Below, piece by piece: positions 42,720 to 47,373 of a stretch of DNA of 64,000 nt; within the stretch, counting starts at the first letter, position 1, and the number at the start of each line of letters is the position of its first letter. The notes below the pieces were generated by a model, which was given only the letters and a program-made list of their open reading frames with translations, did not search any database and was not told the DNA's origin. The stretch is from a virus. Position numbers and translations under genes: made by a program. Location of the stretch: positions 1,396-65,395 of IMG/VR virus record IMGVR_UViG_3300010401_000006, one strand, 5' to 3'.

Positions 42720-43148
42720 ATGGCGGAGTGGACGGACGAGCGTGTCGAAGCTCTGAAAAGTCTTTGGACAGAGGGGCAATCCGCATCGCAGATCGCGCGC
42801 AGGCTCGGAGGTGTCACGAGAAGCGGCATATGCGGCAAGGTTCATCGCCTAGGTCTATCGACACCCAAGGAAAAGAACCATGGCGGCCCGCGATACAGAG
42901 CGCCGAAAGCACCACCGATTGCTATCCCGCCCGAACTTCTTGCTCCTATCGTGCCATCGGAACCGTTGCTCATAGACGGCGCGCATGTGACGATTCTGAC
43001 GGTCAACGACCGCATGTGCCGTTTTCCATACGGCGACCCGACGGCGCCGGATTTCTTCTTCTGCGGACAAAAGGTGAAGCCTGGGTCACCCTACTGCGAT
43101 TTTCATCACGCGAAGGCGAGGGTTCCGGTCAAGGTAAACGGCCACTGA
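42720..43148 (+). CDS. gcrA: GcrA cell-cycle regulator homolog
   Basis: MAEWTDERVEALKSLWTEGQSASQIARRLGGVTRSGICGKVHRLGL; CRFPYGDP...FFFCG......PYCDFH. Confidence 0.92.
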   Translation: MAEWTDERVEALKSLWTEGQSASQIARRLGGVTRSGICGKVHRLGLSTPKEKNHGGPRYRAPKAPPIAIPPELLAPIVPSEPLLIDGAHVTILTVNDRMCRFPYGDPTAPDFFFCGQKVKPGSPYCDFHHAKARVPVKVNGH

Positions 43149-43354
43149 TGCGCCCCAACCCCGACCAGCCCATGCTCTTCGCCCCGCCGCGCGGCAACGC
43201 GCCTAAGTCTGCGGAGGCTGATTCGATCTACGAGGCCGTGCTCAAACTCCGCCGCGCCGGACACACTGTCCTCCGCAAAGGCCGCTGGATGCACTCGGTC
43301 GATGGCGTAAGCTTGGATAGAGCGAGGCTGGTTGAGATGGCCGATTCTCTATGA
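43148..43354 (+). CDS. Hypothetical protein
   Basis: TGATG coupling; QPMLF motif. Confidence 0.55.
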   Translation: MRPNPDQPMLFAPPRGNAPKSAEADSIYEAVLKLRRAGHTVLRKGRWMHSVDGVSLDRARLVEMADSL

Positions 43355-44025
43355 CGGCTTCGGCGCGCGGTCTCTTTCGGGCGACGGGCAAGAAATCCAA
43401 GCCAGTGGCTACGCGGCTGCTGGACGGCTCCTACGCAAAGACCGATTCGCTCGAACGCGAGCGGGATGATTTCTACCCGACGCCGCCAGAGCCGACGCGG
43501 GCTTTCCTTCATGCTGAAATCGAGCGCCTGCGGGATTTCGTCACGATCTGGGAGCCTGCCTGCGGTGACGGTGCCATGGGGCGCGAGATCGAGGCAGTTG
43601 GGATCGATGTGTTCTATTCGGATCTCGTCGACCGCGGGTGCCGCGCACTGATCCAGGATTTCTACGAGTTCAAAAAGTTCTGCCGTCCCTCGCGAGCTAT
43701 TGTGACGAATCCGCCGTTCGATCAAGTCGGATGGGGCAACGGCAAAGCGAAGTGGCTCTATCACGCCTTGGACGAACTCGCCGTCGATTATATGGCGCTG
43801 CTGCTGAACTGGACGTTTCCCGGCGCTGGCGGGCTTGCGCCGTTCTGGGCAAAGTATCCGCCTGCCCGCGTCTATCTCATGCGCTGGAAAATCGATTTCA
43901 CGGGCCAGGGCGCACCGCCGATGCTCAACGGCTGGTTCGTCTGGGACAAGCAGCACACCGGAGAAACGGTCCTGCGGATGCTCGACAGGAAGGACGCGCG
44001 GCAAGCGGAGATGTTCGCACCATGA
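43351..44025 (+). CDS. Amino-(N6A/N4C) DNA methyltransferase-like
   Basis: DDFYPTP; WEPACGDGAM; IVTNPPF. Confidence 0.8.
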   Translation: MTASARGLFRATGKKSKPVATRLLDGSYAKTDSLERERDDFYPTPPEPTRAFLHAEIERLRDFVTIWEPACGDGAMGREIEAVGIDVFYSDLVDRGCRALIQDFYEFKKFCRPSRAIVTNPPFDQVGWGNGKAKWLYHALDELAVDYMALLLNWTFPGAGGLAPFWAKYPPARVYLMRWKIDFTGQGAPPMLNGWFVWDKQHTGETVLRMLDRKDARQAEMFAP

Positions 44026-45476
44026 CCTCCCAACTCCCATTCTCCATCGAATGCGAACAGGCGATTCTTGGGAGCCTCATCTTCGACAACCGCAAGATTG
44101 ACGCCGCAGCGGCTGATCTCGAGCGAGACGACTTCTACGACCCGATGCACCGGCGGATATTCGCCGCAATCATCGCCATGCACGGGGACGGCACGGTTAC
44201 GCCCCTGCGGCTCTGGGCGACGATGCAGGGCGATCCTGGGCTGTCCGAGGTCGGGGGCCATGCCTACATCGTCGGGCTTGCGCAGTCGGCGCCGGCGATT
44301 GTCGACATTGCCGGGCTGACCAAGACCCTGCGCGAATTCGCGCTCCGGCGGGCGCTTGTGGACATCGCGGACGAACTTTCCGAGCGGGCGTGTGCATCGC
44401 CTCCCGCGCCCGCACAGGGCCTTGCAGACGCCGCTACCGAGGCGCTGCTAAGCCTTGGCACCGCCGCGCGCGCCGCGCCCCTGAGCCCGTTTGAGGCCGC
44501 TATGGCGAGCCTGAGGGATTGCGAGGACATGGCGGCGGGGAAACCTGTGCCGCTGGTCCGGACGGGCCTGGCGCAGCTCGACGAGGAACTGGGGGGCCTT
44601 CGGGGCGGCGATCTCGTGGTCGTGGCCGCGCGCAGCGGCCAAGGAAAGAGCGCCTTCATGGGCTGCGTGTCCCTCAATACCGCCCGCGCTCACGTGCCCA
44701 CGATTGTTTTCTCGCTCGAGATGACGGCCCGGCAATGGGTCGAACGCATGGTCTGCGACATCGACTTCGGCGGGGTGTACGGCGGCCCCGAGAAGCCGCT
44801 TTGGTATTCCCGTGTGCGAAATGGTCGCATGAACGCGGACGAATTCTCCCGCTTCGGAACAGCGGCGCAGGAACTGCACGGCCTGCCGCTCGAGATACAC
44901 GACGACGATTACCTGACAATCCAGCAGATCACGGCCCGCGCCCGCGCCTTCAAGGCGAAGCACGGCGGCCAGATGGGGCTTGTGGTGCTGGATTACTTGC
45001 AAATAACGAACCCGGGGGAAGGCTCAGACCGCAACCGCGAGCAGGCCGTGGCCTCGATCGCGCGCGGGGCGAAGTCGCTGGCGAAGCGGCTCGGCTGGGC
45101 GGTCGTGGCCGGTTCCCAAATGAATGAGGGCAGCGAGCAGCGGACCAAGGAAGAGCGCAAGCCCCAGGCCGGTGACGTGCGCGAATCGAAGGCCATCATG
45201 AACGAGGCCGATTTGATCCTGTCGCCCTACCGGCTGGCCTATTACGTCGAGAATAGGAAGCCGCTGGGCGAAGCGGCCGGAGACGCGGCCTGGGCCTCGT
45301 GGAAGGCCGAAATGGACGCCTGCCGGCACCGGATGGACCTACTGTGCCTGAAGAACCGACACGGGCGGCGGTTTGAGATCGAGCTCTACTGCGACATGGG
45401 GGCAAGTGCGATCCGGGACAGCGCGCCAGTGCGGACGGCTGCGGATGCGGCCGCGCGCGAATTGGCGCTCTCTTGA
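44022..45476 (+). CDS. dnaB: Replicative DnaB-like helicase
   Basis: ECEQAILGSL; GDLVVVAARSGQGKSAF; FSLEM; VVLDYLQ; SQMN; DVRESKAI..EAD. Confidence 0.93.
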   Translation: MTSQLPFSIECEQAILGSLIFDNRKIDAAAADLERDDFYDPMHRRIFAAIIAMHGDGTVTPLRLWATMQGDPGLSEVGGHAYIVGLAQSAPAIVDIAGLTKTLREFALRRALVDIADELSERACASPPAPAQGLADAATEALLSLGTAARAAPLSPFEAAMASLRDCEDMAAGKPVPLVRTGLAQLDEELGGLRGGDLVVVAARSGQGKSAFMGCVSLNTARAHVPTIVFSLEMTARQWVERMVCDIDFGGVYGGPEKPLWYSRVRNGRMNADEFSRFGTAAQELHGLPLEIHDDDYLTIQQITARARAFKAKHGGQMGLVVLDYLQITNPGEGSDRNREQAVASIARGAKSLAKRLGWAVVAGSQMNEGSEQRTKEERKPQAGDVRESKAIMNEADLILSPYRLAYYVENRKPLGEAAGDAAWASWKAEMDACRHRMDLLCLKNRHGRRFEIELYCDMGASAIRDSAPVRTAADAAARELALS

Positions 45477-45600
45477 CACGCGGATCACTCTTCGGGAAAT
45501 GTGCGCGTGTCACGCGACGGTGTGACGGCGTAAGGGACTTGGCCGAGTTCGATGCAACTGCTCGTTCTCGGCTCGGCCGGTTCTTTAAGAACGAGCAGGG
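45476..45600 (+). promoter_or_regulatory. Structured leader: UUCG hairpin, second hairpin and H-type pseudoknot
   Basis: ACACGCG/CGCGTGT; GGCCGAG 45541-45547 with CTCGGCC 45572-45578; CTGCTCGTTCT 45558-45568 with AGAACGAGCAG 45588-45598. Confidence 0.5.
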
Positions 45601-45605
45601 GCACC

Positions 45606-45926
45606 ATGTCGCTTTCAGACGATGACGCCGATTTTTATCCCGACTATGACGGGTACAACGACGAGTGCGAGCACGTCGAATACGAGGTTGATTTTGATGG
45701 TCGCGCGCATTGTGATCGCTGCAGCCATTCTTGGTGGCTGAGCGCCCAAGAATTACAGCATCACCTTGAGCGTGAGGCAGAATTTTCCGGCCAATACGAT
45801 GCAATGCTCGCGCGAGAAGACAATTTCTGGCTGCAGCTATGGGACAGGATTAAGGGCCGTTGGTGGGCGTTCCGCCATCTGCGCCAGCGCCACATCATCA
45901 CCACTGACGACGGGATACCATTCTGA
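45606..45926 (+). CDS. Acidic Zn-finger protein ending in DDGIPF
   Basis: CEH...CDRC; SSB-like C-terminal tail. Confidence 0.6.
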   Translation: MSLSDDDADFYPDYDGYNDECEHVEYEVDFDGRAHCDRCSHSWWLSAQELQHHLEREAEFSGQYDAMLAREDNFWLQLWDRIKGRWWAFRHLRQRHIITTDDGIPF

Positions 45927-45929
45927 TGG

Positions 45930-46449
45930 TGTCCCAAGCTTTCACCGCCTGCCCATCCCGCCCGGCCTCGCGCCGATTGAGCGGAACGACAGGCCTGAAA
46001 GCACATCGGCCGCCCATCTTTGGAGAGACAAGCGGCCGAGTTGTGTGCGTTGCGAACGGTGTTCTTGGGAGCCCTGGAAGGCATCCCGCCTATACCGCAT
46101 CTTGCGGTGCCGTTCAACCGCGGACGCAATCCGATGTGTCCCCAACGGGCCGGCCCGTCCCTTCACAGGCCAAAAAACGCTGGCTCTGCCCACCACGGCA
46201 CCCAGCGGCCCATACGGAGCGCCCGCGAGGGTGTTTTGATGGTCTGGTGACGGCAGGAAATCCCGAAGTCCGTAGCCGCGTAGGGATTTCCGAGAGGGCA
46301 GCCATAACAATGCTTTCGGGCGGACACCCTTAAGGACAGGGGTGGGTTTTGTTGCCCGCTGGCCGGGTGACAGGACCAAGAACGAGTACGCGAGGGGTCA
46401 GACCCTTTGGGCATCGGCGCCCACCGCCATACTCCGGCGGGCGGAAAGT
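45930..46449 (+). ncRNA. Candidate large structured non-coding RNA
   Basis: No convincing ORF; at least ten stems including long-range 45938-45953/46436-46449, 45970-45977/46413-46420, 46061-46068/46376-46383. Confidence 0.5.
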
Positions 46450-46798
46450 GGTGAGCTATGGAGGAAGACTTGTGAGGGTCACGGCAGCAACAGCAAAGGG
46501 GTTAGGCCCCGGAAGCCATCCCCGCCAAAAACCAGAAACTGGTACGAAAAGCCGCGCTCTGTACGACGCTTTCGTGGAAGCTCCTGGCATCCCGATCTTG
46601 GTTAGGCCGATCCGTGATTCGCTCGGCGTTAATGCATCAAGCTTCGGACATATGATGCGGGCGCTCGTCGACTTCTACGAACTGGACCTTCGGCGCATCC
46701 GCAACGGATTGTGGGTTCTTGCGGGTCGTTGGGATGGTCCGAAATACACAGATTTCATTGCGCCAATCGTCAAGCATGGGAAGCGAGCGCGGACATGA
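46448..46798 (+). CDS. Putative DNA-binding protein
   Basis: GTG start; winged-HTH-like C-half; start uncertain. Confidence 0.5.
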   Translation: MVSYGGRLVRVTAATAKGLGPGSHPRQKPETGTKSRALYDAFVEAPGIPILVRPIRDSLGVNASSFGHMMRALVDFYELDLRRIRNGLWVLAGRWDGPKYTDFIAPIVKHGKRART

Positions 46799-47373
46799 CA
46801 GACGAAGAATTCCTACAAAACATCACTGGCCTCGAAGAGATGGGCGACATTCAAGCCCGCAACACAGTCATAAAAAATAACGGAGGCATGAAGCGGCTGA
46901 TCGCCTTGGCAGCGAAAGCCGTTCTGAAAGAGAAGCGGATTGCGAAAAAGCGCGAGCCCGCATTCATCCCCGATAACTTTCCAGATCCAGCCGCGAAAGA
47001 ACGCGCCGTCGCATGGTGGAGCGGACAACGGCGTCCCGATCTCGTCGCCGCGGTCGAACAGCAGGCCGAAGAATTCCGCCACCGCAATCTCGACGAACAA
47101 ACATCATCTTGGGGCGGAAAATGGAAGACGTGGTACATGAACGCCGTCCACTTCACGAAGCCGCCGCGATTTGCTGATGTCGTCGAGTTCGTCGCGCCAA
47201 GTACATGGCTTGCCCGCCTGAAGGTCTATCATGGCCTCACCGACGCGCCGGCGCGCACATGGAATCCACAATGGGGCCCGGAGCCAGGATCACCCGGATC
47301 GCGCGTCCCACCAGAAGTCACACGCCAACTCGCAAACCTGAAAGGAAACGGCCATGCCCAAACCTCTCCATGA
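46795..47373 (+). CDS. Replication-associated protein (DnaT-like C-terminal motif)
   Basis: AEEFR......W..KW.TW..NA. Confidence 0.5.
   Translation: MTDEEFLQNITGLEEMGDIQARNTVIKNNGGMKRLIALAAKAVLKEKRIAKKREPAFIPDNFPDPAAKERAVAWWSGQRRPDLVAAVEQQAEEFRHRNLDEQTSSWGGKWKTWYMNAVHFTKPPRFADVVEFVAPSTWLARLKVYHGLTDAPARTWNPQWGPEPGSPGSRVPPEVTRQLANLKGNGHAQTSP

What the first reader, a model, noticed from the sequence alone, without database searches (positions are those of the whole stretch)
45930..46449. ~510-nt multi-domain structured RNA candidate in the replication arm
Directly checked complements: closing stem 45938-45953/46436-46449; GCGCCGAT 45970-45977/46413-46420; GGCCTG 45992-45997/46166-46171; TCGGCCGC 46006-46013/46032-46039; GAACGG 46054-46059/46110-46115 enclosing two hairpins; GGAAATCCC 46256-46264/46283-46291; a three-way junction 46296-46357 with a UUCG loop; and crossing pairs GTTCTTGG 46061-46068/46376-46383 and CCCGGCC 45961-45967/46361-46367. 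ORFs across it look spurious. I could not match group I/II intron, RNase P, tmRNA or C4 consensus. The 3' closing strand covers the putative start of the next gene.
Basis: seen in the sequence. Interest (0 to 1): 0.72.

Follow-up and report, generated by a model that had tools for sequence, protein, structure and literature searches.

The report
New large structured phage RNA family
A 545-base gene-free stretch in a soil phage carries a previously undescribed, intricately folded RNA-type element that four other, mostly unrelated phage sequences share with compensating base-pair changes; its function is unknown.

Summary
The finding is real, but its architecture needs correcting. Window 45926-46471 is a non-coding gap between a 124-aa ORF and a 108-aa gene, downstream of DnaB, in a complete 67-kb phage with direct terminal repeats.

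I found four homologues: two Logan contigs and two complete IMG/VR phages. A covariance model of the 5' 265 nt hits exactly one site per genome. 90% of base-pair cells pair, against 36-47% in slid controls. 34 pairs carry compensatory double changes, against 5-11 in controls.

The closing stem, one further long-range helix and both crossing pairs are not conserved; the long-range GCGCCGAT pairing is untestable.

The element is modular: a conserved 5' core (P1-P4) joined to one of two unrelated 3' domains, in all four combinations. Nothing marks it as coding. It matches no Rfam family, no isolated phage and no bacterial genome searched.

The flanking genes differ at all five loci, and no window ORF has a match in both other complete phages. 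My best reading is a new large structured non-coding RNA, the same general kind as ROOL and GOLLD, co-transcribed with the early operon.

Transcription, the folded strand and function are untested. The scan had not noted this family on other DNA.

The parts
45926..45928 (+). Conserved ATG at the 5' edge of the element. It overlaps the TGA stop (45924-45926) of the upstream 124-aa ORF.
   Evidence: An ATG sits 12 nt before GCTYYYC in all five members. It overlaps the stop of five non-homologous upstream genes, as ATGA in four and TGATG here.
45938..46002 (+). P1 domain of nested helices: P1 45938-44/45996-46002, P1a 45947-53/45988-94, P1b 45958-62/45979-84 and P1c 45963-66/45972-75. The conserved unpaired motif CGAUUGAG lies inside it.
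   Evidence: Helices 1-4. 8 of 22 pairs carry double changes, for example CGGC/GCCG becoming CGUC/GACG in L019.
46006..46039 (+). P2 hairpin: 46006-13/46032-39 plus 46017-20/46025-28.
   Evidence: 9 of 12 pairs covary. The stem sequence is entirely replaced in L015 and G001 yet still pairs.
46040..46130 (+). P3 domain: P3 46040-49/46121-30, P3a 46054-59/46110-15, P3b 46064-72/46081-89 and P3c 46093-98/46104-09. The interior varies in length between members.
   Evidence: Helices 7-10. 12 pairs carry double changes. L015 and G001 have a shorter, different interior closed by the same P3.
46131..46176 (+). The most conserved strand, CCGAUGUGUCCCCAACGGG (46131-46149), followed by hairpin P4a 46152-58/46165-72. 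The first 7 nt (46131-46137) are unpaired in the model; 46138-46148 form the 5' strand of the weak P4 helix.
   Evidence: The block CGCAAKCCSATKTGTNNNCAACGGG is shared by all five members and retrieved both IMG/VR homologues. P4a has 5 of 7 pairs with double changes.
46178..46207 (+). Hairpin CGCUGG...CCAGCG at the junction between the 5' core and the type-A 3' domain.
   Evidence: It lies in a 47-nt block (46178-46224) that is identical in L015 and is predicted. There is no variation, so pairing is untested.
46208..46442 (+). Type-A 3' domain. It is closed by 46208-11/46439-42 and 46215-19/46432-36. The inner helix is 46236-44/46374-82. The hairpins are 46220-33, 46256-91, 46294-317, 46325-44, 46394-407 and 46408-23.
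   Evidence: Shared with L015 at 75% identity. 68 pairs are all kept and 9 carry double changes, against 0-1 in slid controls. It is unrelated to the type-B 3' domain of L002, G001 and G002.
46443..46475 (+). 3' junction: GGAAAGUGGUGAGCUAUGG, the ribosome-binding site GGAGGA (46460-65) and a 5-codon mini-ORF (46458-46475, MEEDL*). The mini-ORF's stop overlaps the GTG start (46472) of the 108-aa gene.
   Evidence: Read from the sequence. The same junction motif precedes the starts of unrelated genes in L015 and G001.

Best explanation
Window 45926-46471 is one member of a previously undescribed family of large (about 520-650 nt) structured non-coding RNAs. The family is carried by uncultured phage sequences; where the source is on record it is soil (this window). 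The GcrA genes in this window and in one relative point to alphaproteobacterial hosts.

The element most likely folds on the + strand and is co-transcribed with the early/replication operon, because I found no promoter or terminator of its own. It has a conserved 5' core of about 250 nt: the P1 multi-helix domain, the P2 hairpin, the P3 domain with a variable interior, a highly conserved strand beginning with 7 unpaired nt, and P4. To this core is joined one of two unrelated, exchangeable 3' domains. This window has type A.

Neither flanking gene is conserved with the element, and no window ORF has a match in both other complete phages. I therefore infer that the folded RNA itself is the functional unit. 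It would act on host machinery or as an RNA-only particle, in the manner of ROOL and GOLLD, rather than regulating a particular neighbouring gene.

Shown here: conservation, covariation, absence of coding signal, modularity and one copy per genome. Inferred: transcription, strand, release from the operon transcript, and action in trans. My odds are about 0.8 for a conserved structured RNA, about 0.7 for the + strand, and about 0.4 for action in trans as opposed to in cis.
For: Homologues:
- L002, L015, and the complete phages G001 and G002.
- Covariance model R1 gives exactly one strong + strand hit per genome: 268, 277 and 276 bits for the sequences it was built from, and 102 and 67 bits (E 4e-31 and 4e-20) for the other two.

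Covariation in the 5' core:
- 90.2% of cells pair, against 36-47% with slid partners.
- 34 pairs carry double changes, against 5-11 in slid controls.
- 0 of 500 shuffles reach the observed values.

Held-out test: the structure was derived from three sequences.
- L015 pairs in 87% of cells with 24 double changes.
- G001 pairs in 95% of cells with 17 double changes.
- Slid controls give 30-49% and 3-7.
- These two sequences are only 56% identical to the window.

3' domains: type A has 9 double changes against 0-1 in controls, and type B has 23 against 4-7.

Not coding:
- Substitutions fall 12/15/18 and 28/22/32 across codon positions.
- GC1, GC2 and GC3 are about equal, unlike the real genes in the window.
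- The conserved block GCCGATTGAG is read in different frames in different members.
- There are no Pfam or PHROG hits.

Independence from neighbours:
- The upstream genes are non-homologous at all five loci.
- The downstream genes differ.
- No window ORF of 70 aa or more has a match in both G001 and G002.

Strand:
- Recurrent G-U pairs sit at fixed covarying positions. There are 35 G-U cells against 13 A-C cells.
- The orientation relative to the flanking genes is the same at 5 of 5 loci.
Against: - There is no expression data. No run listed as holding this DNA is on record as RNA, so transcription, transcript ends and stability are untested.
- The strand is not settled. RNAalifold conservation indices are similar on both strands. 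Shuffle z-scores are as low or lower on the - strand for type-B members. The G-U excess comes from an alignment fitted on the + strand.
- There are only five members, so tertiary contacts and the exact 3' end are undefined.
- The conserved ATG overlapping the upstream stop, and a frame kept open for 83-139 codons in all members, suggest ribosomes may enter the element. That fits a free-standing RNA poorly.
- Nothing tested speaks to action in trans.
Confidence: 0.7

Rival explanations
1. It is the same + strand structured RNA, but it works in cis on the operon that carries it. Examples would be a processive anti-termination or anti-polarity element acting on the transcribing polymerase, or a decay and processing barrier. 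Translation from the conserved ATG would keep the long untranslated stretch safe from Rho.
For: - The element has the same orientation as the operon and abuts the upstream stop and the downstream ribosome-binding site at 5 of 5 loci.
- No promoter or terminator of its own rises above chance.
- The ATG overlaps the stop of unrelated upstream genes, and the frame stays open for 83-139 codons without amino-acid conservation.
- In the window and in L002 it lies about 400 nt downstream of a conserved palindromic, operator-like 21-mer preceded by TTGACA.
- A cis action on polymerase would not depend on which genes flank it.
Against: - To my knowledge, known cis anti-terminator RNAs such as HK022 put are around 70-120 nt, not 520-650 nt.
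- An exchangeable 3' domain of 280-400 nt with its own covariation is hard to justify for that role.
- The open frame is not statistically compelling, because the frames are few and the sequences are related.
Confidence: 0.25
2. The functional transcript is the - strand: an antisense RNA gene embedded in the operon.
For: - Shuffle z-scores for the - strand are -3.3 to -4.0 in type-B members, against -2.1 to -3.0 for +.
- The RNAalifold conservation index is similar on both strands.
- On the - strand, the P2 hairpin is followed by a U-rich tail.
Against: - The supposed U-tract is the 3' strand of P1 and covaries with its partner. UGAAAGC becomes UGGAAGC in L019 and is compensated by CUUUC becoming CUUCC.
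- G-U cells outnumber A-C cells 35 to 13.
- No - strand promoter-like site lies at the conserved 3' end.
- The window's own z-score favours the + strand.
Confidence: 0.1
3. It is a DNA-level element of the replication module. It could be single-stranded DNA structures used for priming or primosome assembly, an origin, or a recombination linker that mediates module exchange.
For: - It sits next to DnaB here and in G001, and near a gene with a DnaA_C-type domain in L015.
- It lies exactly where gene content differs between phages, with short conserved junction motifs at both ends.
- Covariation by itself cannot tell RNA from single-stranded DNA.
Against: - There are no iterons, DnaA boxes or AT-rich stretch, and GC is 63%, above the genome average.
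- Nested multi-helix junctions with long-range helices (P1, P3 and the type-A closing helix) and fixed G-U positions are typical of RNA.
- There is a single copy per genome, unlike dispersed recombination cassettes.
Confidence: 0.07
4. The 135-codon ORF 45926-46333 is a real gene for a fast-evolving, disordered basic protein, and the RNA structure is incidental.
For: - The ATG start overlaps the upstream stop in the way real genes of these phages are joined (one search shows many 4-nt overlaps).
- An ORF of 83-139 codons is present in all five members, and a gene caller called it in L015.
Against: - Substitutions show no third-position excess.
- GC1 and GC2 are about equal, whereas real genes here have GC2 well below GC1.
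- Conserved nucleotide blocks are read in different frames in different members.
- Conservation runs 136 nt (type A) and more than 300 nt (type B) past the stop.
- There are no family hits.
- Long spurious ORFs occur in most frames on both strands.
Confidence: 0.03

Closest known systems
[quoted passage not shown]
   Same: - Both are large, multi-domain structured RNAs encoded by phages and prophages, with no known function.
- GOLLD has one universally conserved half and one less conserved half (PMC12286853). Here the 5' core is conserved and the 3' domain is exchangeable.
- One member here (G001) has a tRNA-Met gene 290 nt downstream. GOLLD is often near tRNAs, and one GOLLD (env-38) was first found downstream of a tRNA-Met.
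   Different: - There is no match to the Rfam model even at E of 10 or less.
- In GOLLD it is the 3' region that is conserved.
- The window has no tRNA genes at all.
- The hosts here are probably Alphaproteobacteria.
- This element is shorter, at 520-650 nt against more than 800 nt.
- Multimer or nanocage formation is untested.
ROOL RNA (rumen-originating, ornate, large)
   Same: - The size is similar; the ROOL example solved by cryo-EM is 659 nt.
- Both are phage or prophage encoded.
- No protein partner is known, and here none is conserved alongside the element.
- The function of both is unknown.
   Different: - There is no Rfam match and the secondary structure is unrelated.
- This element is embedded in an operon without its own promoter or terminator signals.
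- It is rare: five members found, none in isolated phages.
HK022 put RNAs and other cis-acting processive anti-termination RNAs (comparison from my own knowledge)
   Same: Both are structured RNAs inside a phage early operon, co-directional with it. Their action would not depend on which genes follow.
   Different: - Put elements are two stem-loops of roughly 70 nt, whereas this is 520-650 nt with 20 or more helices.
- No sequence or structural similarity was tested or seen.
- No terminators that it would need to override were identified.
PeSL-type stem-loop cassettes at mosaic junctions of T4-type phages (a lead from earlier scan notes, not checked by me)
   Same: Both are non-coding, hairpin-forming sequences that sit where related phages differ in gene content, with short conserved junction motifs.
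   Different: - PeSL cassettes are short and are repeated many times per genome.
- This element is single-copy and more than 500 nt long, with nested long-range helices and conserved unpaired strands.

Membership tests
Generic conserved structured non-coding RNA | Secondary structure is maintained by compensatory changes across homologues, beyond the controls. | tested here: met
   34 pairs carry double changes against 5-11 in slid controls. Held-out sequences pair in 87% and 95% of cells against 30-49% in controls.
Generic conserved structured non-coding RNA | No protein-coding signature. | tested here: met
   Substitutions are flat across codon positions. GC1, GC2 and GC3 are about equal. 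Conserved blocks are read in different frames. There are no Pfam or PHROG hits.
Generic conserved structured non-coding RNA | It is transcribed as a defined RNA. | not testable with these tools
   No RNA run that could be laid on the stretch was available.
GOLLD / ROOL / OLE / HEARO / raiA (large Rfam families) | A match to the family covariance model. | tested here: not met
   No match at gathering score in the whole window. No match at E of 10 or less over 45400-47000, or at E of 5 or less in four homologous loci.
GOLLD / ROOL | Frequent adjacency to tRNA genes in phages or prophages. | tested here: inconclusive
   The window has no tRNA. One of the other loci has a tRNA-Met 290 nt downstream on the opposite strand.
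Group I / group II intron | It interrupts a gene whose exons are conserved, and it matches the intron core model. | tested here: not met
   The flanking ORFs are non-homologous at the five loci. There is no Rfam intron match.
RNase P RNA / tmRNA (including two-piece tmRNA) | A match to the Rfam models, or ARAGORN detection of a tmRNA. | tested here: not met
CRISPR-repeat mimic (RNA anti-CRISPR) | Resemblance to a CRISPR repeat at family score. | tested here: not met
   The only weak Rfam hit is CRISPR-DR23 at 46417-46447, with 19.9 bits against a gathering score of 45 and E = 1.1. L015 changes its 5' arm.
MITE or other non-autonomous transposable element | Conserved terminal inverted repeats and several copies per genome. 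| tested here: not met
   The terminal complementarity keeps only 7 of 11 pairs in L015 and is absent in type B. There is one copy per genome. Divergence between members is about the same as that of the one flanking gene they share.
Replication origin | Iterons or initiator boxes and an AT-rich unwinding region. | tested here: not met
   No iteron family was found. GC is 63%, above the neighbouring sequence.

The most novel reading that the evidence does not exclude
This may be the first large 'ornate' RNA class of alphaproteobacterial phages. It would be a modular RNA machine in which a conserved 250-nt core, fitted with either of two interchangeable 3' domains, self-assembles or captures a host complex during infection, as the ROOL and GOLLD nanocages may do. 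A start codon coupled to the upstream gene would carry ribosomes through it, so that the operon escapes polarity.
Probability: 0.15. Interest if true: 0.85.

Novelty: new variant of a known kind. Interest (0 to 1): 0.62.

Why it matters
To my knowledge, bacterial and phage RNAs longer than about 400 nt with conserved, complex folds and no known function are few; GOLLD, ROOL and OLE are the examples discussed in PMC12286853. Each of those three, when examined by cryo-EM, formed an RNA-only multimer, which was unexpected.

This element has two unusual features.
- It is the only sequence I found in common between this phage and both other complete phages that carry it, one of which (G002) otherwise shares only a handful of gene matches with it.
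- It is visibly modular, with two 5' subtypes and two unrelated 3' domains occurring in all four combinations.

That gives a natural domain-swap series for experiments. It also shows that such RNAs exist in soil phages of Gram-negative hosts, which current RNA libraries cover poorly. The caveat is that only five members are known and expression is unproven.

Tried and rejected
Searches that gave nothing:
- Rfam, whole window at gathering score, and both the region and the homologous loci by E-value.
- GenBank phages by blastn, with type A and type B queries.
- E. coli genomes.
- DnaB and the 108-aa protein in viral contigs. The alignment of the 108-aa family in viral and genome contigs.
- The 19-mer and a first gapped pattern in viral contigs.

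Searches that gave only chance or repeat hits:
- The same gapped pattern in metagenome contigs gave 11 hits. All were chance and none had any other motif of the element.
- The conserved 25-nt block in genome contigs of 185,579 species gave one chance hit in a cyanobacterium.
- Two further viral-contig patterns found only the same two phages.

Other attempts:
- A spurious-ORF alignment for type B found no protein hits.
- More distant homologues of the 108-aa protein sit in tightly packed contigs with no gap upstream. L003 has the protein without the element.
- No RNA holder was listed. The two DNA runs are the likely source sample and a 225-nt identical fragment.
- Promoter and terminator scans of four loci were at chance level, with no consistent site at the element's ends.

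Ideas considered and dropped:
- The 11-mer TTTTGATGGTC repeats are at chance level by simple counting.
- An RNase P-like ACAGAAAC...CUU motif in type B is only a recalled resemblance and has no model support.
- A UUGAG/CUCAA tertiary pair holds in 3 of 5 members only.

Full report
CONTEXT

The window lies in a 67,403-nt IMG/VR virus record with direct terminal repeats, rated complete. Around the finding all genes run on the + strand.
- A GcrA homologue lies at 42720-43148 (Pfam, E 4e-37).
- An adenine methyltransferase follows at 43351-44025.
- A DnaB helicase lies at 44037-45476.
- A 124-aa ORF ends at 45926.
- After the gap, a 108-aa gene most likely starts at GTG 46472, behind GGAGGA at 46460-65.

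The finding occupies the 545-nt gap 45927-46471. GcrA points to an alphaproteobacterial host. The only run that holds the whole stretch is a soil metagenome, which may be the source sample.

The + strand folds with z = -4.1 against dinucleotide shuffles, and the - strand with -2.0. My own run over the whole gap gave -2.6 and -2.0. The homologues give -2.1 to -3.0 on + and -1.3 to -4.0 on -. Thermodynamics is therefore suggestive but does not decide anything, including the strand.

HOMOLOGUES

Neighbour-protein and pattern searches were mostly empty. Three routes worked.
- The 108-aa protein led to Logan contig L002. Window 45938-46163 aligns to it at 71% identity.
- The spurious 135-aa ORF found a called "protein" on Logan contig L015. 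Window 46125-46469 aligns to it at 75%.
- The block CGCAAKCCSATKTGTNNNCAACGGG, conserved in all of these, retrieved two complete IMG/VR phages, G001 (71.7 kb) and G002 (74.8 kb).

No isolated phage, E. coli genome or representative bacterial genome has the element.

NOT CODING

- Substitutions between the window and L002 fall 28/22/32 on the three codon positions of the long ORF. Between the window and L015 they fall 12/15/18.
- GC content at codon positions 1, 2 and 3 is flat (0.66/0.66/0.59). In the real genes of the window, position 2 is far lower than position 1.
- The conserved block GCCGATTGAG is read as RRLSG in three members and as MPIEL or RPIEA in two.
- Conservation continues well past every stop codon.
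- Long open frames occur on both strands in most frames.
- There are no Pfam or PHROG hits.

STRUCTURE

A covariance model built from the window, L002 and G002 (5' 265 nt, 80 pairs) finds exactly one + strand site in each genome. It also finds the two sequences left out of the model, at 102 and 67 bits.

On the five-sequence alignment:
- 90.2% of cells form pairs, against 36-47% when partners are slid by 1-3 columns.
- 34 pairs carry changes on both sides, against 5-11 in slid controls.
- 0 of 500 column shuffles reach any observed measure.

Because that alignment is fitted to the model, I also treated L015 and G001 as a held-out test.
- L015 forms pairs at 87% of the predicted positions, and G001 at 95%.
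- 24 and 17 of those pairs differ from the window on both sides.
- Slid controls give 30-49% pairing and 3-7 such pairs.
- Both sequences are only 56% identical to the window.

The clearest case can be seen by eye. The P2 stem is UCGGCCGC/GCGGCCGA in the window, ACAGCCGC/GCGGCUGU in G002, and CCCCGCCG/CGGCGGGG in L015 and G001.

The 5' core helices in window coordinates:
- P1 45938-44/45996-46002, with nested P1a, P1b and P1c.
- P2 46006-39.
- P3 46040-49/46121-30, enclosing P3a, P3b and P3c. This interior is shorter and different in L015 and G001.
- A nearly invariant strand at 46131-49, whose first 7 nt are unpaired.
- P4a 46152-72.

THE 3' HALF

The window and L015 share a "type A" domain, 46178-46442, which includes a 47-nt identical block. 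All 68 predicted pairs are kept, and 9 carry double changes against 0-1 in slid controls.

L002, G001 and G002 have a different "type B" domain of 330 or more nt. It has its own covariation (23 double changes against 4-7) and an invariant 11-bp long-range helix, ACUUCCGCCCC with GGGG...CGGAAGU. nhmmer sees no similarity between the two types.

The 5' core also comes in two subtypes. All four combinations of 5' subtype and 3' type exist, so the parts have recombined at the CGCUGG junction.

- Three local helices are confirmed by covariation.
- The closing stem, the GGCCTG pair and both crossing pairs are not kept in L015, and they have no counterpart in type B.
- GCGCCGAT/ATCGGCGC is invariant in L015, so it is untestable. 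It conflicts with P1c, which covaries.
- The element is therefore a string of domains, not one closed 510-nt fold with pseudoknots.

CONTEXT ACROSS LOCI

- The gene upstream differs at all five loci, and the genes downstream differ too.
- G001 shares DnaB, a methyltransferase and a few other matches with the window. G002 shares only a GcrA-like protein and a few others.
- No window ORF of 70 aa or more has a match in both.
- G001 and G002 share their structural genes with each other but not with this phage.
- The RNA-type element is thus the one thing I found common to all three complete phages. It is always single-copy and always co-oriented with the operon.
- No promoter- or terminator-like sites mark its ends above chance.

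AN UNEXPLAINED FEATURE

In all five members an ATG lies 12 nt before the first conserved block. It overlaps the stop codon of whatever gene lies upstream, as ATGA four times and TGATG here. The frame from that ATG stays open for 83-139 codons, although indels shift it relative to the conserved blocks.

Four-base start/stop overlaps are the usual gene junction in these phages. One reading is that ribosomes really do re-initiate here. That would suit an anti-polarity role for translation across a long untranslated stretch. The other reading is that the ATG is a scar of module exchange at gene boundaries. The 3' end supports the scar idea. The junction GGUGAGCUAUGG plus the first codons recurs before unrelated genes in L015 and G001, and in the window it is reduced to a 5-codon mini-ORF fused to the GTG start.

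STRAND

In favour of +:
- The window's z-scores.
- 35 G-U cells against 13 A-C cells, with recurrent G-U at fixed covarying positions.
- The constant orientation relative to the operon.
- The U-rich run that would serve a - strand terminator after P2 is the 3' strand of P1 and covaries with its partner.

Against:
- RNAalifold indices are symmetrical between the strands.
- Type-B z-scores are lower on the - strand.

I put the + strand at about 0.7.

WHAT IT IS

It is a new family of large structured RNA-type elements. The closest known kind is the large "ornate" RNAs of phages, GOLLD and ROOL. These are likewise of unknown function, have no known protein partner, and in GOLLD's case have one conserved and one variable half (PMC12286853). 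It is not a member of either family, because it matches neither model at any threshold used.

A published IMG/VR survey of candidate structured RNAs (PMC10690425) required three or more IMG/VR regions per candidate, so it could contain this element. Its supplements were not available to check.

Function is inferred only. No neighbour is conserved, so I favour an RNA that acts by itself or on host machinery. A cis role on transcription, polarity or mRNA stability is the main rival.

The scan's earlier notes hold no look-alike on other DNA.

Noticed in passing
window 45473-45529; L002 1180-1236: A 21-mer, GTCACGCGACGGTGTGACGGC (45509-45529), with GTCAC/GTGAC symmetry is 100% identical in L002. 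In both sequences a TTGACA precedes it by about 30 nt. It lies in the gap after DnaB here and after an unrelated gene in L002. It looks like an operator or promoter for the unit made of the small ORF plus the RNA.
   Followed up: partly
window 46458-46475: A five-codon mini-ORF (ATG GAG GAA GAC TTG TGA) has a stop that overlaps the GTG start of the 108-aa gene. Its ribosome-binding site, ATG and first codons match the starts of unrelated genes in L015 and G001, so it looks like a truncated gene start left by module exchange.
   Followed up: partly
L020 2120-2233 (G001): A near-copy (23 of 25 aligned bases, one extra base) of the window's type-A 3' terminal motif, CGGAAAGYGGTG(G)AGCTATGGAG, lies about 260 nt beyond the end of G001's type-B RNA. 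It overlaps the 3' end of a tRNA-Met gene on the opposite strand (2157-2233).
   Followed up: no
window 46472-46798: The 108-aa protein downstream belongs to a family with 138 representative clusters in the 1.84-billion-protein library, and it has no Pfam or PHROG match. It has a very conserved C-terminal half (YELDLRRIRNG.WVLAGRWDG.KYTD.IAPIV). It occurs both with and without the RNA element upstream.
   Followed up: partly
G001 and G002 (L022-L029) compared with the window: The two IMG/VR phages that carry the element share their whole structural module with each other but not with this phage. G001 shares DnaB and the methyltransferase with the window, and G002 shares a GcrA-like gene. The early regions of these phages are strongly mosaic.
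   Followed up: partly
L015 3527-3997; L002 716-1201; G002 67339-67692: A homologous protein of 118-161 aa with no Pfam match lies 0.4-1.2 kb upstream of the element at three of the five loci. It is absent near the element in the window and in G001.
   Followed up: no
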